Below the pieces are notes generated by a model, which was not told the origin of the DNA, made no database searches, and saw nothing but the letters and a program-made list of their open reading frames with translations. From contig NC_010296.1 in the NCBI RefSeq assembly GCF_000010625.1, positions 3,030,001 to 3,062,000 on the forward strand: 32,000 nt of DNA, in the 5' to 3' direction. Both the position numbers and the translations under genes were made by a program. Within the stretch, counting starts at the first letter, position 1, and each line of letters begins with the position of its first letter. This DNA comes from Microcystis aeruginosa NIES-843 (GTDB taxonomy: Bacteria; Cyanobacteriota; Cyanobacteriia; Cyanobacteriales; Microcystaceae). This document shows positions 1,964 to 20,368 of this stretch, piece by piece.

Positions 1964-1964
1964 T

Positions 1965-2711
1965 AGCTAGTAGTGGACTTATTACCCCTCCTTGTGGTGT
2001 CCCGGTTTCTGTTTCTTCAAATACACCGTTATCCAAAACTCCTGCTTTGAGCCATTGTTTGATGTCTCTTTTCAGGGAGCTTGGACAATGAATTTTGGAC
2101 AGTAAAAAGTCGTGATTAATTCGGTCAAAACACTTGGCAATATCAGCATCTAATACAAAGTAGCTACTTTGATTAATGGTGATGTATATCTTTGATATTG
2201 CGTCATGGGCAGACCTTCCGGGTCGGAAACCATAGCTGGTTCCTTCCATTTTTGACTCCCATTCTGGTTCAAGTGCCGATTTAATCAACGCTTGTCTAGC
2301 TCTGTCTTTAATGGTTGGTATTCCTAATGGGCGTTTTTCATCCCTGCCGGGTTTAGGAATCCATACCCTTCTTAGCGGTTTTGCTTTAAGTGTTCCTTTG
2401 ATTTCTTCGGTTAGATTTAGCCTTTGTTCTGGGGATATTGCTATCACTCCATCGACTCCTGCTGTTTTCTTTCCTTGATTATCTTGGGTTACTTTGCGAA
2501 CTGCTAATAGACGAGCATAGTATGATTTCGCCAATAGACGTTGCAACCTTCTAACCTTTGCATCCTGTCCCGATTTAGCCGCTTGGTATATCCTCTTTTG
2601 GAGCTTGAAAACATATCTTTGGACTTTTGCCCAATTGATAGTTTTCCATACATTCGTAGTCTTAGTGGTTTTCGGTTTCCCGAACCCTTTACCTTCTCTC
2701 GCTTTCGTCAT
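1965..2711 (-). pseudogene. Group II intron reverse transcriptase, N-terminal fragment (RT motifs 0-4), truncated by the IS630 insertion
   Basis: The ORF-track protein MTKAREGKGFGKPK...RKVTQDNQGKKTAGVDGV...RRVWIPKPGRDEKRPLGIPTIKDRARQ...SYGFRPGRSAHDA...VLDADIAKCFDRINH...GTPQGGVISPLLA then reads IL-stop from IS-derived sequence. These motifs are typical of group II intron RTs. Confidence 0.85.
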
Positions 2712-3471
2712 ATAGACTCCTACTAGACTCTATCCTTACAATCAAACCGTAACCTGTCAGCATATCCTGACTATTACTGTCAGGCGTTGGCTTTTGGTTA
2801 CATCTCACACCCTTAAAGGCTTGCGCTTACACTTATCGCTACTGGGTATTTCGACCGATACTCAGAGCCTAAAAGGGTTTATAACGTTCCGTTTATATGG
2901 GCATTCCATCTTTAGATTTGTCCTCTCCACCGGGGTACTTTAAAGGTCTGTGTGAGTGGGAAAGGTAAGACCCTCACTATTCCCCTTATTCTTTTGAATG
3001 TAGTGTGTCAACCTATTTCACTACTCAATGTTTACGATGGTTCAAGTCGGACATTTGGCTCACGCCTAATCTTGGATGGTTGGCAGTGGTCTCGGTTTGG
3101 ATGTTAGGTTACATCTAGGAGCCTTCCGTTCCCCGCTTCAGTCCCAGAGTTGTGACTTCTGAATCTGGGGGTGGCTATCGCCGTTACTCTCAGCTTTGTA
3201 ACGATTTGTGATTGATTGTTACAAAGTGTATTGACCTTGAGTCCCCTTGCCTGATTTGGTATCGGGTGATACTAAACGTCGGGACATATAAACAGTTATA
3301 AGGTTGGTCTGGGTTGACCTCTTAGATTCAGTCGGGGGACTGAAGACCTTACTAGGCGGTTATTTCGGGCATTTCAGCCCTATTTCATGCCTAAACGTTT
3401 CGCACTCATACATACATTATATGTATCTTAGAAGGTTGAGTCAAGCTCAAAACCCCTTCAGAGTATCACAC
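2712..3471 (-). ncRNA. Group II intron ribozyme, 5' portion (domains I-III and the start of IV)
   Basis: Non-coding sequence between the putative 5' splice site and the RT start codon. It contains many short complementary segments and only spurious ORFs (2541..2726 and 3304..3495). Its position matches group II intron architecture. I did not fold the secondary structure. Confidence 0.55.
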
Positions 3472-3641
3472 GGATCGCCTTACCTTCCCACTTAGAGGGG
3501 TATTCAGGGGGAATGACAACTGTGCCATGATGAAGAATCATTTTAAATTCAATCGCTTCCATTCGTTAAGTTTAATAAAGTGTTGTATCAAGTTTAACCC
3601 AATCAATCCATGGAGTTTTAGGGGATGAAAAAAAAGCAGCA

Positions 3642-3659
3642 AAAAAGCGATCGCTTTTT
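3642..3659. repeat. HIP1-centred 18-bp perfect palindrome AAAAAGCGATCGCTTTTT
   Basis: Read directly from the sequence. Further GCGATCGC copies occur at 12411-12418, 24502-24509 and 27240-27247. HIP1 is a cyanobacterial genomic signature. Confidence 0.8.
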
Positions 3660-3703
3660 CCCAATCAAATATAATTTAGGTAGAAAATTGCCGAAAAACC
3701 TCT

Positions 3704-4522
3704 ATGCTCAACGGGTACAAAATTATTGATGCTGATTCCCATGTCATTGAACCCCCCGCAATGTGGGGCCAATACCTAGAACCTAAATTTAGGGAATTTG
3801 CTCCTTCTGCTGACATGAAAATCAAAGGAGAACCGATTAGTCAAAAAATCTCCCCACAAGTCCAAGCAGAAGGGAATAAGCAGATGATGCAAGCTCATCC
3901 CCAGGCTTATCTCAATCGCTATAACCCAGAGTCCCATGTTCAAGCAATGGTACAAATGGGGGTAGATATGGCCTTTATTTATCCTACCTATGGACTGTGG
4001 TTATTTGCCATTGATAGCCTACCCGCCGAAGTGATGGGGGCTTTTGTCCGTGCCTATAATAGATGGTTATCAGAAGAATATTGTAGCTATGACCCGGCTA
4101 GACTGAAAGGAGTCGCTGCAGTCAATCAACATGATCCCGAAGATATGGTCAAAGAGCTACACCGCATGGCAAACTTGGGCTGGAAGGCGGTTTTTTTGCG
4201 CCCTAATCCCGTTAAAGGTAGAATTTTGAGCGATCGAGCCTATGAACCCTTTTGGACGGCCTGCGAGGATTTGGACATGGCTGTAGGAATTCATGAAGGC
4301 ACTCATAGCCGCTTACCCACCACTGGTGCAGATCGATTTAACACCCGTTTTGCCCTTCATGCTTGTTCTCACCCCATGGAGCAGATGATGGCACTGTTAG
4401 CCTTAATTGAAGGGGGGGTTTTAGAACGTCATCGGAGGCTGAGGGTGGCGTTTCTAGAGTCAGGGTGTGGTTGGCTTCCCTATTGGTTATGGAAGCTTGA
4501 CGAAGAATACAAAAGTTTATAG
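3704..4522 (+). CDS. Amidohydrolase-2 family protein (ACMSD/LigW-like metal-dependent hydrolase/decarboxylase fold), probably truncated at the 3' end
   Basis: The N-terminus YKIIDADSHVIEPP..MW..YLEPKF, the internal GIHEGTH, and FLESGCGWLPYWLWKLDEEY are typical of the family. The ORF stops right after the W..rlD..y motif. The C-terminal roughly 100 aa that normally carries the final metal-binding/catalytic Asp (D-Y-P-H-x-D region) is absent. No downstream frame continues it. Confidence 0.7.
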   Translation: MLNGYKIIDADSHVIEPPAMWGQYLEPKFREFAPSADMKIKGEPISQKISPQVQAEGNKQMMQAHPQAYLNRYNPESHVQAMVQMGVDMAFIYPTYGLWLFAIDSLPAEVMGAFVRAYNRWLSEEYCSYDPARLKGVAAVNQHDPEDMVKELHRMANLGWKAVFLRPNPVKGRILSDRAYEPFWTACEDLDMAVGIHEGTHSRLPTTGADRFNTRFALHACSHPMEQMMALLALIEGGVLERHRRLRVAFLESGCGWLPYWLWKLDEEYKSL

Positions 4523-4597
4523 TATGATGTAAAGAATCAGATTAAATTGAACTTAATCCAAGTATTTTCCCTATCAATCTCAGATTATTAAGATATT

Positions 4598-6700
4598 ATG
4601 ACTGAAAACCCCAATAATTATAGTTCTAACTTACCTTCTGGTTGTCCCTTGATCCCAGAATCAATCATGACTGCGAATAGATGTGAACACACGGAGCTTA
4701 ACTTAGAGATTGAAGGGCAATTACCAGAAGACTTGCAGGGTCATTTTTTTATGGTCGCACCAGTAGGAACGGTTGATTCTGGGGGTACCCCTTTTCCCGA
4801 TGGCGACTCATTGTTGAATGGCGACGGTATGATTTACCGACTCGATTTTGATTGCCCCGGTGAAGCAAAGATAACAACACGATTAGCTAAGCCCCCTGAT
4901 TATTATGCAGACAAGGCAACCTTCTTGAAAAGCCAATACCAAAAGTATAGATTTCGCAATCATGGAATTGTCCGCTTTTCTTACGCACTTGGATTTCGTA
5001 ATGAGCTAAATACAGCTTTTCTAGTTATGCCATCAGGAAAGGAAGATGTCCTAGATCGTTTATTAGTGACCTATGATGGAGGCCGTCCCTACGAATTAGA
5101 TACAGAAACCCTTGAAGTTGTTACACCTGTTGGCTGGAATCAAGAGTGGCGGGCCGAAATGAACAAACCACAATTTCCTTTCAAGACGATTTTGAGTACC
5201 GCCCATCCTGCTTTTGATAGTAATACGGGTGAAATGTTTACTGTAAATTATGGCAGAGCTATTATGAATCTGCTAAAGAGGCTCCCTTTTGCCATTGAAT
5301 TAGATGAACTCCCCAAAGACATTTACCAATTAATGAGGGCAATCATTGGTTTTTCTAATGCTAATATGTTGCGAAATATTTTTCAGTTGAATATTATGTG
5401 GGCTAAAGGTATTTTGCAACAGGCCATAAATGTAATTAAATATTTGCTTGGGGAAGATATTGAGAATTTTGTCTATCTGCTTCGCTGGGATGGGACAGGT
5501 AACTTAGAGCGTTGGAAGTTAAGACTTCCCGATGGTTCACCAGTAAAAATTGAACAAACCATCCATCAAATTGGAGTCAGCAAAGATTATGTGATTTTAA
5601 TGGACACAGCTTTTATTGTCGGTTTAGAGCAGTTAATAAACAATCCAATACCAGAGAATAAACAACTCGAAGAATTAATCAGAAACTTACTCGAAAGCCC
5701 GAATCGACCGGATTCATATATTTATATTGTACGTCGTAGGGAGCTCATCTCAGGACAGTACCCGATTGATTCTGACAAGGAAGTGACTGTCATCGCTAAA
5801 AAACTCATCATTCCTTTACCAGCTGCTCACTTTTTAGTTGATTACGAAAATCCTGATGGAAAGATTACGCTTCATGTTGCTCACATTGCTTCTTGGGATG
5901 TGGCTGAGTGGATTCGTAAATATGACTTATCGGCTTACCCACCCTATCATCCAATCGCCAAGCGGGTTTATTCTATGGAACCCAATGAGATGGATATTAG
6001 CCGTTTGGGACGCTATGTAATTGATGGAAACCGAGGAGAAGTCATTCAATCAAATGTTATCTACTCATCTCCCTATACTTGGGGAACGGGTTTATACGCT
6101 TACCGAGATCGATTATCATCAGGAAGGCAACCCAAACGACTTGATGATATTTATTGGATTTCCTTTGGACTTTGGCAGGAAACGATGACAAAGTTTCTCT
6201 ATGATTTATATAAAGATGCCCCCTACCGAGCAGTGCCTTTGGAGGATTTACTAAATTTAGCAAAACAAGGCGTTCCATCTTCCCTGTTTCGATTACATAC
6301 CCCAGATGATTCCCTGAAGATTGCCGATTCTTATCAGTTTCCTAGGGGATATATTGGTGGTTCTCCTCAGTTCATTCCTCGCCATACAAGCGAAGAAAAT
6401 TCTACAGAGGGTTACATCATTTGTAGCGTTTTTACCCCTCGTAGTAGCGAATTTTGGATTTTTGATGGGGGGGATCTGGCCAAAGGTCCTTTGACTAAGC
6501 TAAGACATCAGGATCTAAATTTTGGTTATAGTTTGCACACGGCTTGGCTTCCTACAATTGGTCGCCGTCAAGTGAGTTACAATATCCCTGTCAAATCGGA
6601 TTTTCAGCAGTTGGTAAAGGACAGTTCCCCCGATATTCAAAAACTTTTTGAAGATGAAATATATCCCTTCTTTCCATCAGATAATGGACATTTAGTGTAG
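4598..6700 (+). CDS. Carotenoid/stilbene cleavage oxygenase (CCD/RPE65/LSD) family protein, unusually long at 700 aa
   Basis: Family landmarks: [27 protein letters not shown], and four candidate iron-ligand His residues at about 203 ([13 protein letters not shown]), 323 ([15 protein letters not shown]), 411 ([10 protein letters not shown]) and 647 (GYSLHTAW). An extra segment of about 70 aa (residues about 220-290) lies between the first two His residues. Confidence 0.8.
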
Positions 6701-6714
6701 GAGATAAAGATTCG

Positions 6715-9700
6715 ATGCTCGCTCTTCCTAACTATGAGATTAATCACAAGATTTACGAAGGGGTTAAAAGCGTCGTTTATCGCGGTAAATCTTGTCAGAA
6801 AGAACAGCCCGTAATCATCAAAGTTCTCAAAGCTGAATATCCCTCCATAGAAGAGATCGTCTGTTGGAGACAGGAGCATGAAATTATTCAAAATTTAAAC
6901 TATGATGGGGTAGTTAAATCCTATGGTTTGGTTAACTATCGTCATGTTTTTGCCCTAATTCTCGAAGATTTTGGTGGTCAATCTTTAGCTAAATTTTTAA
7001 CAACCCAACACCTTTCTATTTCTCAGTTTTTAACCATTGCTATCTCCTTAGCAGACATCTTAATTAAGATTCACCAAGTTCCCATTATTCATAAAGACAT
7101 TAAACCCAGTAATATCCTCATCAACCAAGAAACAAAACAGGTTAAATTGACTGATTTTAGCATTGCTTCTAACCTAACATTTGAGCGGCAAACTATTACC
7201 AATCCTCGCTTTTTACAAGGAACACTGGCTTATATGTCCCCAGAACAAACGGGACGAATGAATCGCCGGATTGACTATCGCAGTGATTTTTATTCTTTGG
7301 GAGTGACCTTTTATGAAATGCTCACAGGAATGTTGCCCTTTAGATCTCAGGATTTGATGGAGTTAGTTCATTGTCATATTGCGAAACAACCTCCTCCTTT
7401 AGAACAATTCTCAGTTCCGCCGATGATTTCTAACATTGTTAGAAAACTAATGGCAAAAAATGCAGAAGAGCGTTATCAAAGTGCTGCTGGACTCAAATTT
7501 GATTTGGAAACTTGTTTATGTCAACTAGAAAAGCAGAGCCGGCTTAAGATTTTTGCTTTGGGAGAACGGGATTATCCCAATCAATTGCTGATTCCTCAAA
7601 AACTCTATGGAAGAAGTCAAGAAATAGTGAGATTACTAGAAGCATTCAAACGAGTAGCAAACCCAAAAGTAGCAGGAGTAGAAAAAGTTGAATCTGCCAT
7701 CGAAATAATGTTAGTCTCTGGTTATTCAGGAATTGGTAAGACATCCATTGTTAATGAAGTTCAAAAAGCAATTGTTGAAGCCAGAGGATATTTTATTAGG
7801 GGAAAATTTGAGCAGTTAAAACGCAATATTCCTTATCTAGCTCTGATTCAAGCATTTCAAGAATTAATTCGCCAGTTATTAACTGAAAATCAGGAGGAAA
7901 TTGAATCGTGGAAAGACGATATTATCAGGGCTATTACGCCAAATGCTCAAATTATTATCGATGTCATTCCTGAAGTTGAATTAATCATTGGTAAACAGCC
8001 AGAAGTTCCTCAATTAAACTCTCTAGAAGCTGAAAATCGTTTTAATCAAGTTTTTAAAGAGTTCATCAAGGTTTTTTGTACTCCTAATCATCCTTTGGTA
8101 ATTTTTCTTGATGATTTACAATGGATAGATTCGGCATCCCTAAAATTATTGCAACTTATAGTGACCGATAAAAGAGGCAAATATTTGTTTTTTATTGGTG
8201 CTTATCGAGATAACGAGGTTAGTTCAACTCATCCCTTAACCTTGATGCTAGAGAAACTAAAAACTACCCATTTAGTGATCAATCATCTTGAAATTCAACC
8301 CTTATATTATGACAATGTTCGACAATTAATTGAGGAAACTTTTAACGGTAAGGTTAATAGGGATGAGCTTAAAGATTTAGCCGAATTAATTTTTTATAAA
8401 ACCCAAGGCAATCCTTTCTTTATCTCTCAGTTTCTTAAAACTTTATACAGTGAAAATTTAATAACCTATCAAGTCAATATAGATCGTTGGATTTGGTCTA
8501 GTGAGGCTATACAATCTGTCGGTATTACTGATTATAATGTTGTGGAATTAATTGCTAGAAATATTGGTAAACTTCCTGAAAAAACGCAACAACTAATCAA
8601 ATTAGCTGCTTGTATTGGCAACTCTTTTAGTTTAGATTTATTGGCATTTGTTCAACAAAAATCTATCTCCGCTACAGCGAAAGAATTAGCGATAGCTCTT
8701 CAACAAGGATTTATTTTACCTCAGTCAGAAGACTATAAACTTCCTTTATTGTTTGATCAGATAGAATACCAACAGTTAAATTTAGAAAATGTAGAGATTA
8801 AATACAAATTTTTACACGATAGAGTACAGCAAGCAGCCTATTCACTTATTCCCGAATCAGAACGAAAAGCAAATCACTTGCAAATTGGTCAATTTCTTCT
8901 CAAAAAGACAACTACTCAAGCTCAAGAAAACAAATTATTTGACATAGTTAATCAACTCAATTTTGGGATTGATTTATTAAAGGATACCTCAGATAAAGAA
9001 CAGTTGTGTCAATTAAATTTAAGGGCGGGAAAGAAAGCTAAATCGGCTAATGCTTACCAAGCTTCAGTCAATTATTTACATTTTGCTTGTCAGCTTTTAT
9101 TATTAGATAGTTGGCAAAAGCAATATGAGCTTACCTTTAATATTTATCTTGAATTAGTAGAAGCTCACTATCTGAATACTAATCTAGAAACGGCTGATAA
9201 TCTCTGTGATTTTGCTTTACTGCACGTCCGAAGTCCTTTAGAACAAGTTAAATTTTACGAAATAAAGATTAAAATAAACTTGGCTAGAGGCGCAATAGAT
9301 TTAGCTCTAAATAACGGACAAAAAGCTTTAGAAATTTTAGGCATATCTTTAGTGGAATCACCACCACAAGCGTTAAACATTGAAAAATTAGCCAGATTAG
9401 GAGTGATGAAAGAACCTAATAAGTTGATGGCAATGAAGATTTTTAGTCTTATTTATGCTCCTGCTTGTTTTGCCGAAAGTTCTATAGCATTACCAATTCT
9501 CTATACTGAGATTACCCTATCCCAGCAGTATGGCAATTCACCCCCAGTCGTTTATGCTTATGCTGTTTATGGAATTATTGTCTCTTGGCTCATGTTAGAT
9601 ATTGATTTAGCTTATCAACTTGGACAATTATCTTTACGGGTTTTAGAGAAATTAAATGCCAAGGATTTTTGGTCGAAAGCTTATGTCTCAATTTCCATTA

Positions 9701-12426
9701 ATATAACCTATAAAAAACATCATATTAAACAAACGCTTGAACCCCTTAAGAAATCTATACAAAAGGCTCTGGAAGTTGGCGATCTTGAATTTGCTTGCCA
9801 TGGGGCCAATTTCTACTGCGATCATTTATTATTTGTAGGGAATAACTTAGAATTCGTTCACAATCAGCAAAAACAATATATTGATTTTATTGCTCAATAT
9901 CAGCAAGAACATCCCTTAAATTTAATCAAAATATGCGCCCAATTTGTTGAAATTTTAGTAAATGAATCAGTCGTCAAAAAATTGACGGGTACTATGCTCG
10001 ACGAGGAAAAGTCTTTAAGGCAGTTACTCCAAGTTAACAATCGAATTTCTGTCTTTAATATTTATTTTTATAAAGCTTGGCTTTGTTACTTGTTTAAAGA
10101 TTATCCTCAAGCAATAGAAAACACTAGGATCGCCCTTGAATATTCAGGTTTTGTGAAATCAGAAATTATTTTTACAGAACATAATTTTTATTATTCTTTG
10201 GCATTACTAGCTCAATATCCATCCCTCGACCAAAAAAATAAAAAACAATATCTTAAACAAGTCCAAGAAAATCATAAACTGATGAAATGTTGGCAGGATC
10301 ATGCCCCGATGAATTTTCAGCATAAATACAATTTAATACAGGCAGAAATAGCTCGTGTTTTGAGAAAACCTTTGACAGCAATGAAATATTATGATAGTGC
10401 TATAGCAGGAGCAAAAAAATATGAATTTATCCATGAAGAGGCTTTAGCCTATGAACGTGCCTCTGAATTTTATTTTACTTTAGGTAGAGAAGAAATCGGT
10501 AAACTATATCTCAGAAATGCCTATCATTGTTACATTCGTTGGGGTGCAAAGGCCAAAGTTAAACAATTAGAAGAAGAATACCCTCAATATTTATTAGGCA
10601 TCAGCAATCAAAACAAATCTAAAGGACTGAGTACCACCATTTCAACTACTGGTAATGATGGAGCAGTTCTGGATTTAACCACTATTCTCAAAGCCTCGCA
10701 AGCAATTTCTGGAGAAATTAAACTGGAAAATCTCCTAACAAATTTAATGAAAATTGTCATTGAAAATGCAGGAGCTCAGAAAGGTTGTCTGATTTTAGAA
10801 CAGGAAGGAAATTGGGTCATTGAAGCTCAAGGAACAATTGATCAAGAAACGCTTAATATCTTACAGCCGATTCCCATAGAATCTATCGACTATGATCATT
10901 CAATTCCTATCTTACCCACCAGTATTATTTACTATGTCGCTCGGACAAAAGAAACTATCGTTTTAAATGATGCCACTTCATCAGGTCAATTTACCAACGA
11001 TTCTTACATTATTGCTAAAAAAACTAAATCCATTCTTTGTACTCCTTTACTCAATCAAGGTCAATTAAAAGGAATTGTTTATTTAGAAAATAATTTAACA
11101 ACAGGCGCATTTACCTCAGAAAGGGTTGAACTATTAAATATTCTAGCAGCTCAAGCCGCTATCTCTATTGATAACTCAAGACTCTATCAAACCTTAGAAC
11201 AAAGAGTAGAAGAACGGACAAAAGAACTCACAAATACTTTAGAGGTACTGAAAGCAACCCAAGCAGAACTTATCTTTGAAAATGACCTGCTTAAAAGTGC
11301 TGAACAACCTCCCAAATTTGTCTATCAAGTGGGGGGCAGTTTACCGATGGATGCACCGAATTATGTGGTTCGACAAGCCGATCGCAATCTTTATAAAGCT
11401 CTCAAACAAGGTCTATTTTGCTATGTTTTAAATGCACGTCAAATGGGAAAATCTAGCTTAATGGTACGGATGATGAGCCAATTACAAAAGGAGGGAATTA
11501 GATGTGCAGTAATTGACTTAACTCGGCTAGGAACAGACAATATTACCCCCGAACAATGGTATAAAGGATTAGCCGTTGATCTGCTCCGCAGTTTTGGATT
11601 AATCAAACAATTGAAAACTTTTAAAGCTTGGTGGAATGAACAATTAGACCTGCCTCCTGTACAACGATTAGGACAATTTATAGAAAATTTTCTTCTAGTT
11701 AATGACGATTTTGATCAGCGGCAATCTAGACAATCGACTGTTATATTTATTGATGAAATTGATAGCATTTTGGGGTTAAAATTTGATGTCTCTGACTTTT
11801 TTGCTTTAATTCGTTCTTTTTATAACCAGAGAGCGATTCAACCTCAATTTCAAGAGCTAACTTTTGCCTTTTTTGGTGCTACCACACCTTCAGCTTTAAT
11901 TACTGACCCCCAGAAAACACCTTTTAATATTGGTAACGCTATTGAATTAGCAAGTTTTAAGGAACACGAAGCCCAACCTTTATTATATGGGTTAACAGAA
12001 AAAGTCAGCAATCTTCAGACCATGCTCAAACAAGTCTTAAGCTGGACGGGAGGGCAACCTTTCTTAACTCAAAAACTCTGTCAACTGATGCGGGATAGCG
12101 AGCAACCAATCCCCTCTAATCAAGAAGAACAATGGTTGGCCAACTTAGTAGCAGAAAAAATTATTCAAGATTGGGAGATGCAGGATCAACCCGAACATTT
12201 AAAAACCATTCAAGATCGCCTTCTTCAAAGTCCAAACCGACCCCAGTTATTAACCTTGTATCGACAAATCCTCCATCAAGAACCAATACAGATTGATAAC
12301 AATCCCTATTTACCTGAGTTATTTTTATCTGGATTAGTGGTAAAGCGTCACGGGAAAATGGACGTTCATAATCGGATTTATCAGACGATATTTAATAATG
12401 ATTGGCTTGAGCGATCGCTGTCTTAA
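6715..12426 (+). CDS. Multidomain signalling protein: Hanks-type Ser/Thr kinase, P-loop NTPase (AAA_16/STAND-like), helical/TPR-like region, GAF, coiled coil, and a C-terminal 'AAA-like' P-loop NTPase module
   Basis: Kinase motifs: [15 protein letters not shown] (7090..), DFS in place of DFG (7153..), AYMSPEQ. First P-loop GYSGIGKTS (about 7720) with [12 protein letters not shown]-like region about 10670-11195. Coiled coil [24 protein letters not shown]. Second NTPase from about 11323: [24 protein letters not shown]...[10 protein letters not shown] (Walker A, about 11431) and VIFIDEIDS (Walker B, about 11738). A GGAG RBS lies 14 bp after the upstream stop codon. Confidence 0.85.
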
Positions 12427-12447
12427 TACCATGGTTCAAAAATTTAT

Positions 12448-13785
12448 TTATACTGAACCAGTATATTGACTTATAAAGTACTTTTGATACAACTGACAAC
12501 TGACAATTGCTTTATTTTCTCTGAGTTTAATTAAACCCATACTATTAAGTTTATAAGCAATAATTGGATCGACTATTATTGGTTGATTACCTTGACAAAT
12601 CTGTTGAAAAACAGCGGCAAGTTCGGGTTGTTTTTGTAAAGTGACCCAGTGCAGCTGTAAATGAGAGGAATAAATTCCCGTTGATGTAATTGCTGATTTG
12701 ATTAAATCTGGCATCGTGATTTGCTCTTGGCTAAGATGATAAATCGCTAAATGAATCAAGGCAGGATGTCCCCCCACTAAGTCGATCAACTGTTGAATTT
12801 CGTTGGTTGCTAATTCATTTAATTGATATTTTTTTGCCAATTCTGCCACTTGTTCTTGACCAAAACCCTGTAACTCTATGGGTAATCCCACATTAAAAGG
12901 AGACTGTTCTAATCGCAGAGAAACATAAGATTCTGTGGATTGAACAATAATTAAACGTAATTTCTGCCACAGGGGAGATCGCTTAGATTCTTCATAACAA
13001 GCTCTGATTAAAGGTAAAAAATCTTCTGCTACTTTCGGATGTTCAAAGACTCGATGCACTTCGTCTAAAGCCAATACCAGTGGCTGTTTTATCTCTCGTA
13101 AAATATACTCTTCAAAATAAATTGTCCAACTCATTTTAATTCCTATATCTTCATCCCAATAATCATCTAATTTGGCTTCTAAATTCAACTGCCGAGCGCA
13201 ATTACGGCAGATCCAGCGTAAGAACTTGTTAAAATTTGCTATGATGTCTTGGTCTGCTTTTTGTAAATCTAAACTAACAATTTGATAACCGAATTGCTGT
13301 TGACAAGCCTCTAAAATTGTTAATAATAAAGACGTTTTCCCCCATTTTTTGGGAGCTTTAATGCGTACTAACGCCCCAGATTGTCCGATTTCCTCGATAA
13401 TTTTTGCTTCAAGTTTTGTTCGTTTTAGATAATAATAAGAATTATAGGGAACAGGAGCATCTGGGTATTCTGGACGCTCATTTTGGAGATATTCCTGACC
13501 GCAATACTGAAGCGATGTGGAGTTGGTAAAATGAGATTGTAGTCTAGATAAAAAATTTTTTTTATTGATCGTTTCTCCGATCAGTTGCGAGAGTCTATCA
13601 TAGAGTCCTGGGGCAACTACATTGGCAAGATAGCTGCTACTATAACCATTTTCTTGGGCAATTTCTTGATAGTTCTTTTTCTGCCAAAGTCCTCGCAATA
13701 ATAATTGTTCTGTGTCATTGAGACAGCGATTCTCAAGCTTGAGCAGTTGCCCATTAAGAATCTCTTGGATTTCCTCGAATTTCAT
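12448..13785 (-). CDS. HTH-like N-terminal domain + 'AAA-like' P-loop NTPase, paralogous to the C-terminal module of the 1903-aa protein
   Basis: Walker A APKKWGKTSLL, Walker B LVLALDEVH. The C-terminal ...AYKLNSMGLIKLRENKAIVSCQLYQKYF parallels ...[23 protein letters not shown] in the neighbouring gene. The N-terminal ~70 aa (LNDTEQLLLRGLWQKKNYQEIAQENGYSSSYLANVVAPGLYDRLSQLIGETINKKNF) resembles, from memory, the LuxR-like 'vWA-MoxR-associated protein N-terminal' module. The ORF track starts at 13872. I prefer the internal ATG at 13785 (MKFEEIQEIL...) because the first 29 codons look non-conserved. Confidence 0.75.
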   Translation of the reverse strand: MKFEEIQEILNGQLLKLENRCLNDTEQLLLRGLWQKKNYQEIAQENGYSSSYLANVVAPGLYDRLSQLIGETINKKNFLSRLQSHFTNSTSLQYCGQEYLQNERPEYPDAPVPYNSYYYLKRTKLEAKIIEEIGQSGALVRIKAPKKWGKTSLLLTILEACQQQFGYQIVSLDLQKADQDIIANFNKFLRWICRNCARQLNLEAKLDDYWDEDIGIKMSWTIYFEEYILREIKQPLVLALDEVHRVFEHPKVAEDFLPLIRACYEESKRSPLWQKLRLIIVQSTESYVSLRLEQSPFNVGLPIELQGFGQEQVAELAKKYQLNELATNEIQQLIDLVGGHPALIHLAIYHLSQEQITMPDLIKSAITSTGIYSSHLQLHWVTLQKQPELAAVFQQICQGNQPIIVDPIIAYKLNSMGLIKLRENKAIVSCQLYQKYFISQYTGSV

Positions 13786-14231
13786 TATTTTTGTCCAAGG
13801 TAAGAAGATTTGAAGAAATAGATTATTTGATTTTCCAGTTCCGTTGCAGCCAGAAACCCTGAATCTTGACATAACAGCACCGATTCAAAATAGAATTGGT
13901 ATATTTGACAAACAAGCTGACGAGAACCAGTAACCGACAAAATTGTGCGATGGCAACCCTGAGAGGGATTAGTTTCCCCCCTTGCTAGGAAATTATAGCA
14001 TTTCTTGTCAAGGTCAATTACACGGCAGCAATTATCTCTTGATCATTTCTATCAAAACCCCTAAGTCTTCCGCGTCTAACCCCTCGATAATCCTATTAAC
14101 AATTAGTTCGGAAAAATCCTCACAGGAGTTGACTAGACAGGGTTTTAGCAATCAGATGTACTGCATTTCAACTGCCTATTGGCAATTTTAGTACAGTGGC
14201 TGCTCCCAATCTTGCCAACAACTCTGAACAG

Positions 14232-15491
14232 TTACTGTTCATCCCTCAATACACTTGCTCCCAGAGCTTCTAGGGTTTCTTGCAGCATTTCAGCGCGAGA
14301 TACATTACCCTGATCTTTCAATAATTGTAGGCCTTTTTGCCAAATCTTGATCGCCTCATTATAACTACCGAAAACTATATAAGCAACCCCTAGATTTTGG
14401 TAAATAGTGGGATTATCCTGGTTTAACTTGAGAGCTTTTTTATAAGCTTTAATCGATTCTGGTAGCCGATGCAGTTGTTTGAGAACCAGTCCTAAATTAT
14501 AGTAACCATCGGCATAGCTAGGATCAATTTCTACGGTTTTCTCAAAGACAGATAAGGCAGCTTCGTAGTTTTCTGCTTCGTATAATAACCCACCGAAATT
14601 ATTATAAGCACCCAGTTTTAATTTATCTAAAATTGGCTGCTTAATCGCTTTAACAAAATGATCGGCTGATTGCTTAAATTCCTCCACTGAATAATAATAA
14701 TTAGCGAGATGATAATATAACTCGTATAAAATATGCGGATTAGAGCCATGGCATTTTAAACCATGTTTGAGCAGCTTAAAACCCTCTTTATCCCTGCCAA
14801 TCTTCAGATATAACCCTCCCAATTTACTACACACATAGGGATCGTGGGGATGTTGCTGATAAAAACCCTCCATCGCTTTTCTTGCCCGTTCAAACTTATC
14901 TAAGCTGGCTATTTTATCGACGGTGTAACCGTAGTGAAAGATAGCAATTTCTGGCAGTTCAACTATTTTCCAACCAGGTTCTTTTTTTAATAAAATGGCC
15001 ACATTATCATCAATAATTGAGTGATAGGGTCGGGTAAAAGTGACCTGAGGATGTCGGCGAAATAGCCGCGAAATTAGAGAATAAGGTGATTGTACGGCTC
15101 CGATTTCATGGCGGATTAAATTAATCACTAAATTTTCCTCTTTTTCCATTGCCCGACGCATTTTCGGTACGATAGCGGCATTTAATTCCTCATCAGCATC
15201 AAGGACTAAAATCCAATCGCCAGTAACATATTTTAAAGCCTCATTTCTGGCATCGGAAAAATTACCCCGCCAATCGTAGCTAGGAACTATGGCACCGTAA
15301 CTTTGAGCAATAGCAATCGTATCATCGGTCGAACCCGTATCCATAACGATCATCTCATCCACCACCCCTTTAACGCTATCCAAACAGCGCCGGAGATTTT
15401 CGGCTTCATTTTTGACAATCATGCAGAGACTAAGTTTAGGCATAACTTTACTCACTCTAGCGGTCAATCTTGAGGGATAGCGGCTAATCAA
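14232..15491 (-). CDS. Family 2 glycosyltransferase fused to C-terminal TPR repeats
   Basis: LSLCMIVKNEAENLRRCLDS...MDTGSTDDT...LVLDADEEL (GT2 fold with DxD), followed by several TPR-like repeats (...AEDYYNLG.., AIKIWQKGLQL..). The likely true start is the ATG at 15443 (MPKLSLCMIVKNE). The ORF-track start at 15491 is also possible. Confidence 0.8.
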   Translation of the reverse strand: MISRYPSRLTARVSKVMPKLSLCMIVKNEAENLRRCLDSVKGVVDEMIVMDTGSTDDTIAIAQSYGAIVPSYDWRGNFSDARNEALKYVTGDWILVLDADEELNAAIVPKMRRAMEKEENLVINLIRHEIGAVQSPYSLISRLFRRHPQVTFTRPYHSIIDDNVAILLKKEPGWKIVELPEIAIFHYGYTVDKIASLDKFERARKAMEGFYQQHPHDPYVCSKLGGLYLKIGRDKEGFKLLKHGLKCHGSNPHILYELYYHLANYYYSVEEFKQSADHFVKAIKQPILDKLKLGAYNNFGGLLYEAENYEAALSVFEKTVEIDPSYADGYYNLGLVLKQLHRLPESIKAYKKALKLNQDNPTIYQNLGVAYIVFGSYNEAIKIWQKGLQLLKDQGNVSRAEMLQETLEALGASVLRDEQ

Positions 15492-15516
15492 TAACCCACT
15501 GATTAGCGCTCACCGA

Positions 15517-18195
15517 TTATCGATCATCCTCTGAGTCTACCTTAAACCGTTCTACCGAAGAAAGCAGCTCCCGGGAGATACTCACCAATTTTTGCAGAGA
15601 ACCCGCCACCCGTTGGGATTCTTGGGAAGTTTCCTGAGCGGTTAACTCCACCGACTGCATAACTTGGGCGACATTGAGGGAATTTTCCCGTTGTTTGACC
15701 GTATCGGCGGTAATCGATCGCACCAGCGTATCGATGCGATTAGAAACTTGGATAATATCTTCTAGGGACTTCTTCGCCTGTTCCGAGCGCTCGGTGACAT
15801 CGATAACCTGTTGAATCCCTTCCTCCATCGCCGTCATTACCGAACCCGTTTCCGATTGGATATGTAAAACGATCTGTTCAATTTCCTTAAGCGATTTAGC
15901 GGCTCTATCGGCCAACTGACGCACCTCATCGGCCACAACCGCAAAACCGCGGCCCGCCTCTCCTGCTCGCGCCGCTTGAATCGAGGCATTAAGAGCCAAT
16001 AAATTGGTCCGCGAGGCAATCTGAGAGACTACCGCGACAATTTTCGAGATTTCCTGGGAAGCTTCCGCCAAACGCTTGACTTTTCGCGCCGTTTCTGATA
16101 CGGTCTCGCGGATTTGTAGAATTCCCGCCACGGTTCTTTCCACGGAATCGCCCCCCTTCAGGGCGGTAATCGAGGAAGTGCGGGCGACTTCTTCGGCTTC
16201 TCTGGCGTTTTCTGCCACCCGTTGAATTGAGTCGGTCATCATCTGTACCGAATTAAGGGTGACGGCCAATTCCTCCGCCATCCGCAGGGCATCGCTAGAC
16301 TGATTGCGGGCGAAAGATTCACTATTGGTACTGCCTTGATTCACCTGTTTGGCCGCTTTTTTCACCTGTCGGACAATTTCGCGCAGGTTTTGGATAGTCA
16401 AATTAAAAGCATCGGCCACCGCCCCTAAAACATCGGCGCTTACCTCCGCTTCCACGGTCAGATCTCCCCGAGCCGCTCCTTCCACATCATCGAGAAGTCG
16501 AATCACTTGCCGTTGTAAGTCTTCCCGTTCCCGTTCCGTTTCGGCGGCGCGGCGTTGGGCTTCCGTGGTGGTAGTTACCACCACCCGAGCCATCTGATTG
16601 AAACGATTGGCCAGTTGACCGAATTCATCTTCCGAGTAGATCGTCGCTTTAGCGTTAAAATTACCTTCCGAGAGATGATCGAATTGGCTTTGCAGATCGT
16701 TGAGACTGCGCTTAATCTGACTAATTAGCAACTGTAAACCTAGCCAAGTCAGGGCTAGGGTTCCCAGTCCGGTTAATAACATCGTGGTTAGTACCGGTTG
16801 ACTGAAGGGGGAAAGACTGGCTGAGGCTGGCGGTTTCGGGGCCGGTTTGGGGGCAACCTTTTCGGTTTTTGCCTGGCTATTCGGGGCTGGTTTGGCAGCC
16901 AAGAGCGTAGAAAGCCAAGAGGTGGTACTAACGGCAAAAATTATGATCACAGGGGTAATACCCGCTAAGGCCGCTAGGATTAGTTGTTTTTTGCCTAAAG
17001 AAGCGTTGACAAAAAAGCCTAATTTGCCCGGATTGACTTCCACCACTGGCTTGAGCAAGAGTTCGGAGGCATGGGTAAGATGACTATCTCTTTTGTCATT
17101 GGGGGTTTTTAGACGAGAAGGATTAAAACTAGGCTCTCCCACACCAGAACTGGCATTAAGGTGCGCACTGGGTTCGGGGAGAAAACCACCACTTAAAGCT
17201 TCCCCCCCCGAAGGGGTAAATAGCTCCCAGTCCCCCAGTCCTTGAACCGTATCCGTCAGAGCCAGTGGGGAAAAACCGTCTAAATCCTCATCATTGAGTT
17301 CTGGTTGCCCAAAATCTCCGGTTTCGTCTTCCTCGTCTCTTTGTTGAGTGACTCTGCCCTGATTAGGGCCAGTTTTTGCCCCTTGTGGGTGGGTCGATTC
17401 CAGGTCAATGGCAAAAGTGCTTTCTTCTAGGGTATCCCTATAGGATAACTCCTGATCTCTACCGGTGAGGGGATTTCCCCCCAGAGCAGAGGAAACCATA
17501 AAAGTGGCTTCTCCCGTTGACCCTAACTCACCGTCCCACCCTTCCTCCAGCGAGTCAATCTCCGCCGCTTCTAAAAAGGGGAAAGGGGCTTCCCCCTCCG
17601 CCGAATCGCTAGACCACTGGGAACCGTGAGAGCCAGGGCCCGGCAGGGTAAGGGAACTAAAGGCGGTTTCCTCCGATTCCTCAAAATCATCGTCATAGGA
17701 ATGGACTTTACTTACCGTAGGCTCGCTGGGATCCTCCTCATTGAAAAGACTACTATTCCAATCCAGCCCTTTTTTTTGTCCATCGGGGGCAGCCCCTTGC
17801 GACTTCCAGGAGCGAGAACGGTTAAAACTTTGACTTGGATCGAAAGCTGCCTCGCTGTAGGCAATGCTTTCCGTAGCAGCGATCGTAAAATCTCCCTCCT
17901 CGGCTTCAAAACGCAATTGCCGAATCTGATCGAGACCACGCTGGGCATAATCGACTAGATCGGAGCTAGTGGGAGAATTTTTAGCCAATTGCAGCACTTT
18001 TTCGTAACGTTCCTCCGCCAATCTGTATTGTTGTAGTCCTAGATGAATGTGACCCTGTAAAAGCATGACATTGGCATCCTCGGGATACTTGCTGATCATC
18101 TCTTTGACAATGACGGCGGCATCCTCAAGGTTGCCCTGGCAATAGGCGGTGTTAGCCTTTCTATAAAGTTTTGCGTATTCTGTCCCTGACGGCAT
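15517..18195 (-). CDS. pilJ: Methyl-accepting chemotaxis protein of the type IV pilus taxis system (PilJ/HmpD-like)
   Basis: It has the highly conserved MCP hairpin-tip motif [38 protein letters not shown]-like segment follows two hydrophobic helices. The N-terminus has TPR-like repeats and a long acidic low-complexity region. It sits downstream of CheY- and CheW-like genes and near hmpF. Confidence 0.85.
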
Positions 18196-18284
18196 TTGCC
18201 CCTCCCCTAGTAAAGTTAAATGAAGTAGTTAGTAGTTTCAAGAAAGAATTCCTATAAATCCTATTCTGCTATTTTTTTCAGGTT

Positions 18285-18815
18285 TTAAGCTGCCCAACGG
18301 GCAAAACGGAGTATGGCCAGATAATCGAGTAGTCTTAAGGTTTTTTTTGATTCTTGGCCCAGAATCCACTCTCCCTGCACATAGAGGGCGATCTGATCGG
18401 GAATACTGGCGGCACTACCTAGTTTATCTGGGTCGAGCCATTCCATATCTCCCAAACGTTCCACCGCTAAACCGAGGATCGTTTCCTCTTCTTTGATCGC
18501 AATTATGGGAATTTCGGCTCGATCGGTGTTTAAGCGGCTGCTATCCCCCAAAAATTGCCCGAGATCCGCCACCCAGATCACTTGACCCCGGAGATTGATC
18601 GTGCCGAGGAGCAAGGGTGAAGCATTGGGAATGGGGGTAATGCGATCTAGTGGTTGCTGTATTACCTCGCAAATTCCCACGGCACTAAGGGCAAACTCGT
18701 CCTGAGAGGGTAGATAAAATCGCAAGTACAGTTCACCGACGGGAGTTTGTAATTCCTGATTGTCGGGGGCGATATTTTGAGCGTTACCAGCAAAAAAATC
18801 GGCGTTGTTAAGCAT
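18285..18815 (-). CDS. pilI: CheW-like coupling protein (PilI/HmpC-like)
   Basis: 176-aa single CheW domain (..LRFYL...FALSAVGICEVIQ...ITPIPNASPLLLGTINLRGQVIWVADLGQFLG..). It lies between the CheY-like and MCP genes on the same strand. Confidence 0.85.
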   Translation of the reverse strand: MLNNADFFAGNAQNIAPDNQELQTPVGELYLRFYLPSQDEFALSAVGICEVIQQPLDRITPIPNASPLLLGTINLRGQVIWVADLGQFLGDSSRLNTDRAEIPIIAIKEEETILGLAVERLGDMEWLDPDKLGSAASIPDQIALYVQGEWILGQESKKTLRLLDYLAILRFARWAA

Positions 18816-18906
18816 GAGTTTAGTTCTCTTGCAACTAATAATTCGGGCGGCGTTTTTAGCTGTCTTGACCTATGCCATAGCTAGACTGTCCCCGGTGAGG
18901 GCGATT

Positions 18907-20152: not shown

Positions 20153-20368
20153 ATGAGATTGACTGCCGAATTTTTTGAGACTAGGACAGTACATTTGCGC
20201 TGAAAAATCTCCAAAAATTTTCCAGTGGGGAAGAGGGAAAATTGAGAACAAATGTATGAATCAAAAAGAAAAACTCGAATGATAGAAATTAAAAAATTTT
20301 TGGGATCGGATGGTTACACCGAAACCACAGACGGGCTGCTCCTAGCCTCGATCGCCAACTCTTTCTAA
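20153..20368 (+). pseudogene. Possible decayed N-terminal remnant of a DNA-3-methyladenine glycosylase (Mpg/AAG family) gene
   Basis: One frame reads MRLTAEFFETRTVHLR*KISKNFPVGKREN*EQMYESKRKTRMIEIKKFLGSDGY.... This loosely matches the family N-terminus (L..FF.r.t..lA..LLGk.LV ... G.IvEtEAYlG..D.A.H) but carries two in-frame stops and has no continuation. The match is weak and from memory. Confidence 0.2.

What the first reader, a model, noticed from the sequence alone, without database searches (positions are those of the whole stretch)
6715..12426. HstK-like kinase/STAND/GAF giant protein with its histidine-kinase output replaced by an uncharacterised 'AAA-like' NTPase module
Residues 1 to about 1500 are colinear with the cyanobacterial HstK-type sensors. 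The order is Hanks kinase, P-loop AAA_16, long helical repeats, GAF, then a coiled coil reading ..[24 protein letters not shown]... In that family the coiled coil normally continues into the HisKA H-box and an HATPase_c domain. Here I see no H-box, N, G1 or G2 motifs. After a short linker ([14 protein letters not shown], about 11280-11322) a complete second P-loop module begins. It reads [60 protein letters not shown]. This type is abundant but functionally uncharacterised in cyanobacteria. The swap point falls exactly where the dimerisation helix would start, which suggests modular domain replacement. The kinase keeps K, HKD and APE but has DFS instead of DFG. A single polypeptide carrying a kinase, two distinct NTPase switches and a GAF sensor is an unusual architecture. 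It resembles NTP-dependent conflict or signalling hubs rather than two-component signalling.
Basis: partly seen in the sequence, partly recalled or inferred. Interest (0 to 1): 0.75.

Follow-up and report, generated by a model that had tools for sequence, protein, structure and literature searches.

The report
Sensor kinase with an NTPase output
This Microcystis gene encodes a real 1,903-residue signalling protein. It is built like the cyanobacterial HstK sensor kinases but ends in an uncharacterised "AAA_35" NTPase instead of a histidine kinase. The architecture is common in cyanobacteria, and it is almost always encoded beside a small DNA-binding AAA_35 partner, which suggests an undescribed way of relaying signals.

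Summary
Window 6715-12426 (+) is one uninterrupted 1,903-aa ORF. Its domains are Pkinase, AAA_16 (a STAND-type NTPase), helical repeats, GAF, a coiled coil and AAA_35 (PF14516). There is no HisKA or HATPase_c.

Histidine-kinase (HK) relatives are colinear up to "LKATQxxL". They then run into the H-box, whereas this protein runs into "[24 protein letters not shown]".

The architecture is not rare. All 120 best database hits, spread across cyanobacteria, share it. The same scaffold also carries HK, cyclase or PP2C outputs.

- **A general output module.** This "S-type" AAA_35 also follows REC-PAS, PAS, GAF, Tll0287-like, Cache-HAMP and CHASE3-HAMP inputs. It also leads WD40 proteins.
- **A conserved partner.** 11 of 12 evaluable loci encode an adjacent "E-type" AAA_35 with an N-terminal HTH (window 12448-13785, minus strand). 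Elsewhere E-types carry CHAT or TIR domains.
- **A split version.** One Nostoc locus has an HK-type giant, a REC, a REC-PAS-AAA_35 and the partner.
- **A natural recombinant.** Residues 1 to about 1230 plus the upstream RPE65-like gene come from one clade. The remainder comes from another.

Best reading: a sensor whose NTPase output acts through the HTH partner. The mechanism is inferred and untested.

The parts
6715..12426 (+). Giant gene, 1,903 aa: Pkinase, AAA_16, helical repeats, GAF, S-helix, AAA_35
6733..7482 (+). Hanks-type Ser/Thr kinase domain (residues 7-256). K36, E54, HKD128, N133, D147-F-S and SPE are present.
   Evidence: Column counts are: the catalytic Asp is lost in about a quarter of the family but kept here.
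7600..8196 (+). AAA_16 STAND-type NTPase (residues 296-494). Walker A is GYSGIGKTS and Walker B is [10 protein letters not shown], both invariant. Motifs read by eye: 'KLYGRSQE' (hhGRExE-like) upstream of the domain and 'TQGNPFF' (GxP-like) downstream of it.
8197..10722 (+). Long helical (MalT/TPR-like) repeat region. Residues 801-1200 differ between clades (26-30% identity between clades A and B).
   Evidence: Weak TPR/ARM Pfam hits.
10310..10420 (+). Right-hand recombination junction inside the gene (about residues 1200-1235). Upstream of it identity to the Microcystis CP046973 allele is 21-56%; downstream it is 83-100%.
10723..11169 (+). GAF domain (residues 1337-1485)
11194..11298 (+). Signalling-helix coiled coil (about residues 1494-1528). 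It is homologous to the helix that leads into the DHp/H-box in HK-type relatives. The same helix precedes the module in REC-PAS-AAA_35 proteins.
   Evidence: The AlphaFold2 model has a helix over fragment residues 2-30.
11320..12423 (+). S-type AAA_35 module (residues 1536-1903). It contains the conserved N-terminal motif [17 protein letters not shown], Walker A RQMGKSS, Walker B IDEID, 'GGQPFLTQK', and a C-terminal winged helix.
12448..13785 (-). Partner gene: E-type AAA_35 with an N-terminal HTH (HTH_VMAP-M9 in its orthologues). It is 445 aa from the Met that orthologues use; the ORF itself extends to 13872. It is convergent with the giant gene, 21 bp from its stop.
4598..6700 (+). Upstream RPE65/carotenoid-oxygenase-like gene (700 aa). 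It ends 15 bp before the giant gene. It is linked to clade-A giants in other genera.
3704..4522 (+). Amidohydro_2 gene remnant (272 aa, against 361 aa in orthologues). Its truncated 3' end marks the left-hand recombination junction at about 4510.

Best explanation
The gene encodes a cytoplasmic multi-input sensor of the HstK/PknK-like scaffold: Ser/Thr kinase, AAA_16 STAND NTPase, helical repeats and GAF. Its transmitter is not a histidine kinase. It is an ORC/Cdc6- and STAND-like NTPase of the AAA_35 family, called 'S-type' here, joined through the same signalling helix that normally feeds the DHp domain.

**Proposed working (inferred).** Input sensed by the N-terminal half and the GAF domain is passed down the coiled coil. 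This changes the nucleotide or oligomeric state of the S-type AAA_35. The S-type module then engages the adjacent, separately encoded 'E-type' AAA_35 protein, which carries an N-terminal HTH. Engagement would be by hetero-oligomerisation of the two NTPase modules, as in sensor/helper NLR pairs or Orc1/Cdc6. The result would be a switch in DNA binding or transcription.

On this reading the fused protein is a short-circuited form of a longer relay seen elsewhere: HK-type giant, then REC, then REC-PAS-AAA_35, then partner.

**Shown:** domain content, the junction, module recurrence, partner linkage, the fold, and motif conservation.

**Inferred:** the physical S-E interaction, the direction of signal flow, the transcriptional output, and the ligand.
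For: 1. **Output position.** The same S-type module (50-64% identical) ends proteins whose inputs are REC-PAS, REC, PAS, GAF, Tll0287-like, dCache_1-HAMP and CHASE3-4HB-HAMP.
2. **Alternative outputs on one scaffold.** Among 85 giants, 67 have HATPase_c, 7 AAA_35, 5 Guanylate_cyc and 3 SpoIIE. These types are interspersed on a rough NJ tree.
3. **Junction.** It lies at the start of the DHp helix.
4. **Partner linkage.** An E-type gene lies within about 6 kb in 11 of 12 evaluable AAA_35-giant loci, in varying orientation. Among the 80 scanned loci it occurs only where an S-type gene is present: 7 of 7 evaluable against 0 strong hits in 72.
5. **Split version.** L036 encodes the partner, YcaO, Amidohydro_2, an HK-type giant, REC and REC-PAS-AAA_35. 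The response regulator's PAS-AAA_35 part is 78% identical to the C-terminus of a PAS-type giant. The HK giant is 58-59% identical to clade-B AAA_35 giants.
6. **Fold.** Both AAA_35 types are predicted to fold as an NTPase base, a lid and a winged helix. Best PDB matches are the archaeal ATPases 2fna and 2qen, Orc/Cdc6, and STAND proteins (NRC4, CED-4, MalT, Avs).
7. **Motif conservation.** Walker A and the Walker B Asp are invariant in both types; the Walker B Glu is invariant in the S-type and at least 90% conserved in the E-type.
8. **Other effectors.** E-type proteins elsewhere carry CHAT or TIR instead of HTH, again beside S-type genes. This fits a sensor-module/effector-module division of labour.
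Against: - No experiment or complex prediction shows that S-type and E-type modules touch. Adjacency could equally reflect a kinase-substrate or co-regulation relationship.
- Euhalothece (L006) has the giant gene with no partner within 6 kb.
- The HTH assignment for the window's own partner rests on precomputed Pfam hits to orthologues (94.6% identical in L004) and on a helical AlphaFold2 N-terminus. My Pfam copy gave no HTH hit.
- The contigs recovered for the short REC-, Cache- and CHASE3-AAA_35 proteins were too small to test whether they also have partners.
- The NJ tree has no support values.
- The kinase domain may be the true output and AAA_35 only an assembly domain.
Confidence: 0.5

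Rival explanations
1. It is a STAND-type conflict or immunity system. The kinase-STAND-repeat half recognises an invader or a damage signal. The AAA_35 pair then triggers a defensive or dormancy programme, transcriptional here and TIR- or CHAT-mediated in relatives.
For: - It carries two STAND-like NTPases, and structural matches include Avs and NLR resistosomes.
- Sister loci have E-type AAA_35 fused to TIR or CHAT, next to CHAT-TPR genes.
- The partner's HTH family is named after vWA-MoxR conflict systems.
- Within Microcystis the N-terminal 1,230 residues have been replaced by a 21-56% identical version. This is the kind of diversification seen in recognition modules.
- Transposase genes (IS630-like, TnpB) and a truncated group II intron RT lie nearby.
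Against: - PADLOC matches only the generic kinase domain; the AAA_35 module, the partner and the upstream genes match nothing.
- The inputs that feed the module (REC, PAS, GAF, HAMP, Cache) are classic physiological sensors.
- The locus is chromosomal and syntenic between strains and genera, next to metabolic genes (RPE65-like, Amidohydro_2, YcaO).
- The effector here is an HTH, not a toxin.
Confidence: 0.2
2. The kinase is the real output. The C-terminal AAA_35 only drives nucleotide-dependent self-assembly of the giant protein, which promotes trans-autophosphorylation. The adjacent HTH-AAA_35 protein is a phosphorylation substrate or an independent regulator.
For: - K36, E54, D128, N133 and D147 are intact in the window protein.
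- STAND and AAA+ modules commonly act as oligomerisation switches (established knowledge).
- The module also occurs N-terminally to WD40 repeats and in tandem copies. That is compatible with a generic assembly role.
Against: - About a quarter of family members have lost the catalytic or Mg-binding Asp while keeping both NTPases intact. Examples are L008 with GFN and L026b with HKH/HFD. The family's function therefore cannot depend on kinase catalysis.
- The module sits where transmitters sit, and it is the sole output of response regulators that have no kinase.
Confidence: 0.2
3. It is an artefact or a decaying gene: an assembly chimera or a fused pseudogene with no function of its own.
For: The gene is demonstrably mosaic. 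It sits beside a truncated Amidohydro_2 gene and mobile-element remnants.
Against: - The 5.7-kb reading frame is intact.
- The same mosaic allele is found at 95-99% identity in many independent assemblies.
- All NTPase motifs are invariant across genera.
- The junction joins two homologous, colinear genes, so the architecture is preserved.
Confidence: 0.03

Closest known systems
HstK-family dual Ser/Thr-His kinases of Anabaena/Nostoc (cbSTKIII: Alr2258 HstK, Alr0709/Alr0710, All3691, All1625)
   Same: The N-terminal 1,520 residues are colinear: Hanks kinase, AAA_16, helical repeats, GAF and signalling helix. Identity is 39-59%. Zhang et al. 2007 (PMC2176072) had already noted that Tery_3863 (GAF only) and Tery_2857 (GAF plus cyclase) cluster with these kinases but lack HisKA.
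   Different: There is no HisKA or HATPase_c, and an AAA_35 NTPase replaces them. There is no cognate REC in the window. The conserved neighbour is an HTH-AAA_35 protein.
STAND NTPases with kinase or HTH effectors (M. tuberculosis PknK, MalT/LAL regulators)
   Same: The AAA_16 NTPase plus MalT-like helical repeats has the same organisation. The partner model matches MalT, 8bob.
   Different: Those proteins have a single NTPase and a fused effector. This one has a second, unrelated NTPase at the C-terminus and a GAF domain between the two.
Archaeal 'ATPase_2' (PF01637; Sso1545 2fna, PAB2304 2qen) and Orc1/Cdc6 initiators
   Same: They are the best structural matches to both AAA_35 models: NTPase base, lid and C-terminal winged helix. 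There are weak Pfam ATPase_2 hits.
   Different: Sequence identity is only 13-16%. Those proteins are stand-alone DNA-associated ATPases, not transmitter modules of sensors.
Sensor/helper NLR pairs (NAIP-NLRC4, plant sensor NLR-NRC)
   Same: This is an analogy for the proposed mechanism. A ligand-activated sensor NTPase module engages a separate NTPase module that carries the effector. Structural matches include NRC4 and CED-4.
   Different: No homology beyond the P-loop/STAND fold. No evidence here of templated polymerisation. The inputs are bacterial signalling domains.
Bacterial enhancer-binding proteins (NtrC, NifA: REC or GAF, then AAA+, then HTH)
   Same: They are a precedent for REC or GAF domains controlling the assembly of an AAA+ output. 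NCBIfam nifA weakly hits the GAF region.
   Different: There is no Sigma54_activat domain and no GAFTGA motif. The HTH is on a separate polypeptide. The AAA_35 is of the ORC/STAND type, not the clade-6 bEBP type.

Membership tests
HstK family / cbSTKIII dual kinases | N-terminal Hanks-type Ser/Thr kinase domain | tested here: met
   Pkinase 7-256, E 1.6e-37.
HstK family / cbSTKIII dual kinases | At least one GAF domain between the two kinase domains | tested here: met
   GAF 1337-1485.
HstK family / cbSTKIII dual kinases | C-terminal HisKA (H-box) plus HATPase_c | tested here: not met
   No Pfam or NCBIfam hit at E<=1. In the junction alignment the H-box is replaced.
AAA_35 (Pfam PF14516, 'AAA-like domain') | Score above the Pfam gathering threshold over the full model | tested here: met
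   112.4 bits against a cutoff of 27, model positions 4-330 of 331. The neighbour scores 450.6 bits.
STAND-class NTPase (applied to the AAA_35 module) | Walker A and Walker B intact and conserved | tested here: met
   G1578, K1579, S1580, S1581, D1680 and E1681 are invariant in 32 sequences.
STAND-class NTPase (applied to the AAA_35 module) | Helical lid with a GxP-type motif, followed by a winged-helix domain | tested here: inconclusive
   'GGQPFL' is invariant, and the model shows a lid plus a winged helix with a beta-hairpin. Foldseek hits both STAND and ORC/RuvB proteins at TM 0.4-0.5. The two cannot be separated with these tools.
STAND-class NTPase (applied to the AAA_35 module) | C-terminal ligand-sensing repeats after the NTPase | tested here: not met
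   The module ends the protein at residue 1903. WD40 repeats follow the module only in other family members.
Two-component system | Phospho-accepting His transmitter and a cognate REC receiver | tested here: not met
   Neither is present in the gene or in its conserved neighbours. Both are present only in the split relative L036.
Sigma-54 enhancer-binding AAA+ (NtrC/NifA) | Sigma54_activat domain (PF00158) | tested here: not met
   Not among the Pfam hits at E<=1.
Known anti-phage defence systems (PADLOC-DB v2) | Match of the system-specific components | tested here: not met
   Only generic kinase models (PD-T4-6, mad6) hit residues 6-275. There were no hits for the partner, the RPE65-like gene or Amidohydro_2.

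The most novel reading that the evidence does not exclude
S-type and E-type AAA_35 proteins together form a widespread, undescribed cyanobacterial signal-relay principle. A STAND/ORC-like NTPase module serves as the transmitter domain of response regulators, Cache/HAMP receptors, PAS/GAF sensors and HstK-type kinases. It activates a separately encoded cognate NTPase that carries the effector (HTH, TIR or CHAT). This would be a bacterial counterpart of sensor/helper NLR pairs, wired directly into two-component and Ser/Thr-kinase signalling.
Probability: 0.35. Interest if true: 0.85.

Novelty: new variant of a known kind. Interest (0 to 1): 0.62.

Why it matters
AAA_35 is a very large family: 9,331 representatives at 50% identity. 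The open literature searched here assigns it no function. Two results turn it into a concrete, testable hypothesis. First, it occupies the transmitter position behind nearly every class of bacterial sensor domain. Second, it is genetically paired with an effector-bearing sister NTPase.

If the hypothesis is right, it adds a new output and relay type to bacterial signal transduction. It would link classic two-component signalling to STAND/NLR-like assemblies. It would also explain the "HstK-like" genes long noted in Microcystis and Trichodesmium.

The natural split (L036) and fused (window) versions, together with the intragenic recombinant, give ready-made material for domain-swap experiments.

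Tried and rejected
- **Promoter and terminator scan of 3300-14300.** Counts did not exceed those in shuffled sequence, so it says nothing about operon structure.
- **PDB sequence search with the module.** Only spurious P-loop matches came back (RecA, Rpt3). Fold comparison was needed instead.
- **PADLOC.** Nothing beyond the generic kinase domain.
- **Literature.** 'PF14516' occurs in no paper of the library. 'AAA_35' searches mostly hit unrelated strings. The one relevant mention is a domain census of sigma-70-like proteins. The Kaur et al. 2020 conflict-systems paper does not mention AAA_35 or VMAP-M9 by those names.
- **Context look-ups for the short S-type sensors.** P0136, P0143, P0146, P0149 and P0180 returned contigs of only 2.6-5 kb. 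Whether they also have E-type partners stays untested.
- **Upstream 'unk340' protein of clade-B loci.** It has no Pfam or PDB relative.
- **HTH in the window's partner.** My Pfam copy did not detect it. The assignment relies on precomputed PF26355 hits for orthologues.
- **Is the 60%-identical Microcystis protein (P0012) a paralogue?** Rejected. It occupies the same chromosomal locus, and the low overall identity comes from the mosaic structure.

Full report
**1. What is in the sequence**

Window 6715..12426 (+) is one uninterrupted ORF of 1,903 codons. Pfam finds these domains:
- Pkinase, residues 7-256
- AAA_16, residues 296-494
- GAF, residues 1337-1485
- AAA_35 (PF14516), residues 1541-1894, at 112 bits against a gathering score of 27

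No HisKA or HATPase_c model appears even at E<=1. NCBIfam agrees.

The kinase keeps K36, E54, H126-K-D128, N133 and D147.

Full-length proteins at 99% and 95% identity occur in independent Microcystis assemblies. The ORF is therefore not a sequencing fusion. The flanks (petB/petD, an MCP-CheW-REC-HmpF cluster, transposases) are ordinary cyanobacterial chromosome. They are 92-94% identical to M. aeruginosa CP046973.

**2. The architecture is common, and the scaffold carries interchangeable outputs**

All 120 best hits in the 5.8-billion-protein collection have the same domain set, including PF14516. They are 50-99% identical over full length. They come from Microcystis, Nostoc, Trichodesmium, Okeania, Moorena, Crocosphaera, Halothece, Fischerella and others. 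A sub-group of about 2,060 aa has PAS domains inserted before the module.

A genome scan returned 80 loci. Most match only query residues 1 to about 1520. I scanned the last 500 residues of 85 such giants with Pfam:

| Output domain | Giants |
|---|---|
| HATPase_c | 67 |
| AAA_35 | 7 |
| Guanylate_cyc | 5 |
| SpoIIE | 3 |

On a rough neighbour-joining tree of the N-terminal 1,450 residues (no support values), the AAA_35 giants fall into at least two well-separated clades plus two singletons among HK types. The cyclase and PP2C types are also scattered. Output exchange on this scaffold is therefore recurrent, not a one-off.

Zhang et al. 2007 had already remarked that Tery_3863 (GAF only) and Tery_2857 (GAF plus cyclase) cluster with HstK kinases but lack HisKA (PMC2176072).

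**3. The junction**

Anchored alignments show colinearity through the GAF domain and the following helix:
- Window: ...[51 protein letters not shown]
- HK-type L036: ...[50 protein letters not shown]

The sequences diverge 8-10 residues after 'LKATQ'. That is at the start of DHp helix 1, some 17 residues before the phospho-accepting His.

The same helix ('LEQKVEERTQELTQTLEILKATQxKLIFENALL') precedes the module in REC-PAS-AAA_35 proteins. The coiled coil therefore travels with the module.

**4. What the C-terminal module is**

A search of 1.84 billion representatives with residues 1525-1903 gave 9,331 hits at E<=1e-3 and 4,188 at E<=1e-30.

The AlphaFold2 model (pLDDT 79.9) shows a long helix, then a low-confidence stretch that includes the conserved motif [17 protein letters not shown]. 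After that come an alpha/beta NTPase base, a helical lid and a winged helix. Foldseek's best PDB matches are the archaeal ATPase Sso1545 (2fna) and Orc/Cdc6. STAND proteins (Sr35, Avs4), RuvB and TnsC follow.

Walker A (RQMGKSS), Walker B (DE) and a GxP-like 'GGQPFLTQK' are invariant in 32 orthologues. Reading that motif as a STAND hallmark is my own inference from the literature on STAND NTPases.

**5. The module is a general transmitter**

Proteins carrying this same subtype (50-64% identical to the window's module) include the following:
- REC-PAS-AAA_35
- REC-AAA_35
- PAS-AAA_35
- GAF-AAA_35
- Tll0287-like-AAA_35
- dCache_1-HAMP-AAA_35
- CHASE3-4HB-HAMP-AAA_35

These are complete genes on their contigs. 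The module also occurs at the N-terminus of WD40 proteins (18 of 40 sampled) and as a tandem pair before CHASE2. I call this subtype S-type.

**6. A conserved partner**

The convergent neighbour (12448..13872, minus strand) is a canonical AAA_35 protein (450 bits) with an N-terminal extension. It is only 23% identical to the S-type module. Its orthologues carry Pfam HTH_VMAP-M9 (PF26355).

Its AlphaFold2 model (pLDDT 83.5) has a helical N-terminal domain and an NTPase, lid and winged-helix body. That body matches 2qen, 2fna, NRC4, CED-4, MalT, Orc/Cdc6 and Avs. I call this subtype E-type.

I built HMMs for both subtypes and ran them over all loci:
- An E-type gene lies beside the giant gene in 11 of 12 evaluable AAA_35-giant loci, in convergent, divergent or co-directional orientation. 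These are the window, L001-3, L004, L005, L007, L008, L009, L011, L012, L026 and L072. L006 lacks it.
- Among the 80 scanned genome loci, E-type genes occur only where an S-type gene is present (7 of 7 evaluable). There were no strong hits in the 72 loci without one.
- Partners are 40-58% identical between genera.
- In L032 the E-type protein carries CHAT instead of HTH.
- In L094 a TIR-AAA_35 and a GerE-like-HTH-AAA_35 sit beside a 2xS-type-CHASE2 protein.

**7. A split version**

Locus L036 (a Nostoc MAG) encodes, in order: E-type partner, YcaO, Amidohydro_2, an HK-type giant (Pkinase-AAA_16-GAF-HisKA-HATPase_c), a single REC, and REC-PAS-AAA_35.
- Residues 146-726 of that response regulator are 78% identical to the C-terminal 580 residues of the PAS-type giant of Nostoc carneum.
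- The HK giant is 58-59% identical over 1,575 residues to clade-B AAA_35 giants.
- The locus is syntenic with L007: YcaO, Amidohydro_2, unknown genes, AAA_35 giant, partner.

This is Rosetta-stone evidence that the S-type module lies downstream of the HstK-type sensor. The window's fused protein bypasses the His-Asp step.

**8. Mechanism proposed, and its status**

Shown:
- the domains and the junction
- recurrence of the module at the transmitter position
- partner linkage
- conserved NTPase motifs
- the ORC/STAND-like fold

Inferred:
- the coiled coil transmits GAF and N-terminal input to the S-type NTPase
- the S-type NTPase then engages the E-type partner through their NTPase modules
- that engagement switches the partner's HTH

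Precedents, by analogy only, are REC/GAF control of AAA+ assembly in NtrC/NifA and sensor/helper NLR pairs.

Rivals:
- A conflict system. TIR and CHAT relatives and the allelic replacement favour it. The PADLOC result, the physiological sensor inputs and the syntenic metabolic neighbours count against it.
- A model in which the kinase is the output and AAA_35 only drives self-assembly. Against this, 8-9 of 32 family members have lost the catalytic or Mg-binding Asp while both NTPases stay invariant.
- An artefact, which the evidence in section 1 excludes.

**9. Mosaic origin of this allele**

Compared with the same locus in M. aeruginosa CP046973 (L004), the flanks and window 10175-15451 are 92-94% identical at DNA level. 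The stretch from about 4510 to about 10400 is replaced.

Protein identity is 21-56% for residues 1-1200 and 83-100% after about residue 1235. The upstream gene differs completely: an RPE65-like protein of 700 aa here, against an unrelated 329-aa protein in L004. The Amidohydro_2 gene is truncated at the left junction.

Across genera, two deep clades exist:

| Clade | Upstream gene | DFG motif |
|---|---|---|
| A | RPE65-like | eroded (DFS, DFN or GFN) |
| B | 'unk340', with or without Amidohydro_2 | intact |

The repeat region (residues 801-1200) is only 26-30% identical between the clades. The window protein is clade A up to about residue 1230 and clade B afterwards. It is therefore a natural domain-swap chimera that persists in many strains.

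**10. Verdict**

The contrast it draws with two-component signalling is too strong.

The gene belongs to a widespread but functionally unstudied variant of the HstK scaffold. The main added value is the S-type/E-type AAA_35 pairing and the split relay. Together these give a specific, testable mechanism.

Noticed in passing
window 4510-10400 (compared with L004 = M. aeruginosa CP046973 2759276-2777062): Intragenic mosaic. The RPE65-like gene plus the first ~1,230 codons of the giant gene replace an unrelated 329-aa gene plus a 21-56% identical N-terminal half. The flanks and the 3' third are 92-100% identical. The upstream gene type co-varies with the repeat-region clade across genera.
   Followed up: yes
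window 3704-4522 (+): The Amidohydro_2 ORF is truncated to 272 aa, against 361 aa in Microcystis CP046973 and Nostoc UHCC 0702 (74-92% identical). It is probably a pseudogene left by the recombination event.
   Followed up: partly
window 4598-6700 (+): The RPE65/carotenoid-oxygenase-like protein is 700 aa long. Only residues ~21-218 and ~587-652 align to solved dioxygenases. The 'TAHPxFD' and 'SLHxxW' His motifs are kept, with about 370 divergent residues between them. Its substrate is unknown; its product could be the GAF ligand (speculation).
   Followed up: partly
alignment A3 columns for residues 128 and 147; L008, L026 (second copy): About a quarter of AAA_35-type giants are predicted pseudokinases (HxN in 8 of 32, GFx in 9 of 32), while the Walker motifs of both NTPases stay invariant. 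The clade linked to RPE65 shows an eroded DFG (DFS/DFN/GFN).
   Followed up: partly
window 11323-11370 (residues 1537-1552): The motif [17 protein letters not shown] is nearly invariant across thousands of S-type modules, and E-type proteins have a related one. Yet it is modelled with pLDDT<50 in the monomer. It may become ordered only in a complex.
   Followed up: no
L026 7086-12776 and 12822-18512: Tandem duplication of the giant gene in an uncultured Dactylococcopsis MAG. The second copy has a degenerate kinase active site (HKH, HFD).
   Followed up: no
L092 221-2578 and 2711-5146: Two membrane receptors with an S-type AAA_35 output sit in tandem: CHASE3-4HB-HAMP-AAA_35 followed by dCache_1-HAMP-AAA_35.
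   Followed up: no
L094 362-13236: This cluster runs CHAT-TPR, GerE-like-HTH-AAA_35, TIR-AAA_35, 2xS-type-AAA_35-CHASE2, DUF928, CHAT-TPR, then ShlB/TPS. It looks like a conflict-type version of the S/E AAA_35 pairing.
   Followed up: partly
window 12448-13872 (-) and homologues: Several NCBI and UniRef records name the HTH-AAA_35 partner 'serine/threonine protein kinase', although it has no kinase domain. The name was probably carried over from the neighbouring gene.
   Followed up: no
window 916-2711: An IS630-like DDE_3 transposase (916-1959, +) abuts a 5'-truncated group II intron reverse transcriptase (RVT_N plus partial RVT_1; 1956-2711, -).
   Followed up: no
window 14232-23832: GT2-TPR glycosyltransferase (14232-15491, -). 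A chemotaxis-like motility cluster follows: MCP with HAMP (15517-18195, -), CheW (18285-18815, -), a CheY-like REC (18907-19272, -) and HmpF (22144-23832, +). A TnpB/OrfB_IS605 gene (20882-22213, +) lies next to hmpF. In CP046973 a TnpB sits instead between the GT2-TPR gene and the MCP.
   Followed up: no
window 25025-31645: Housekeeping context: a phytoene/squalene-synthase-like gene, petD and petB (25922-27124, -), a second TnpB-like gene (27465-29051), and a circularly permuted ATP-grasp plus Alpha-E pair (29045-31645).
   Followed up: no
L036 3668-6073; L007 1-1678: A YcaO cyclodehydratase gene lies upstream of Amidohydro_2 in two Nostoc loci of the clade-B/HK type. This hints at a conserved small-molecule or peptide-modification context for the sensor.
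   Followed up: no
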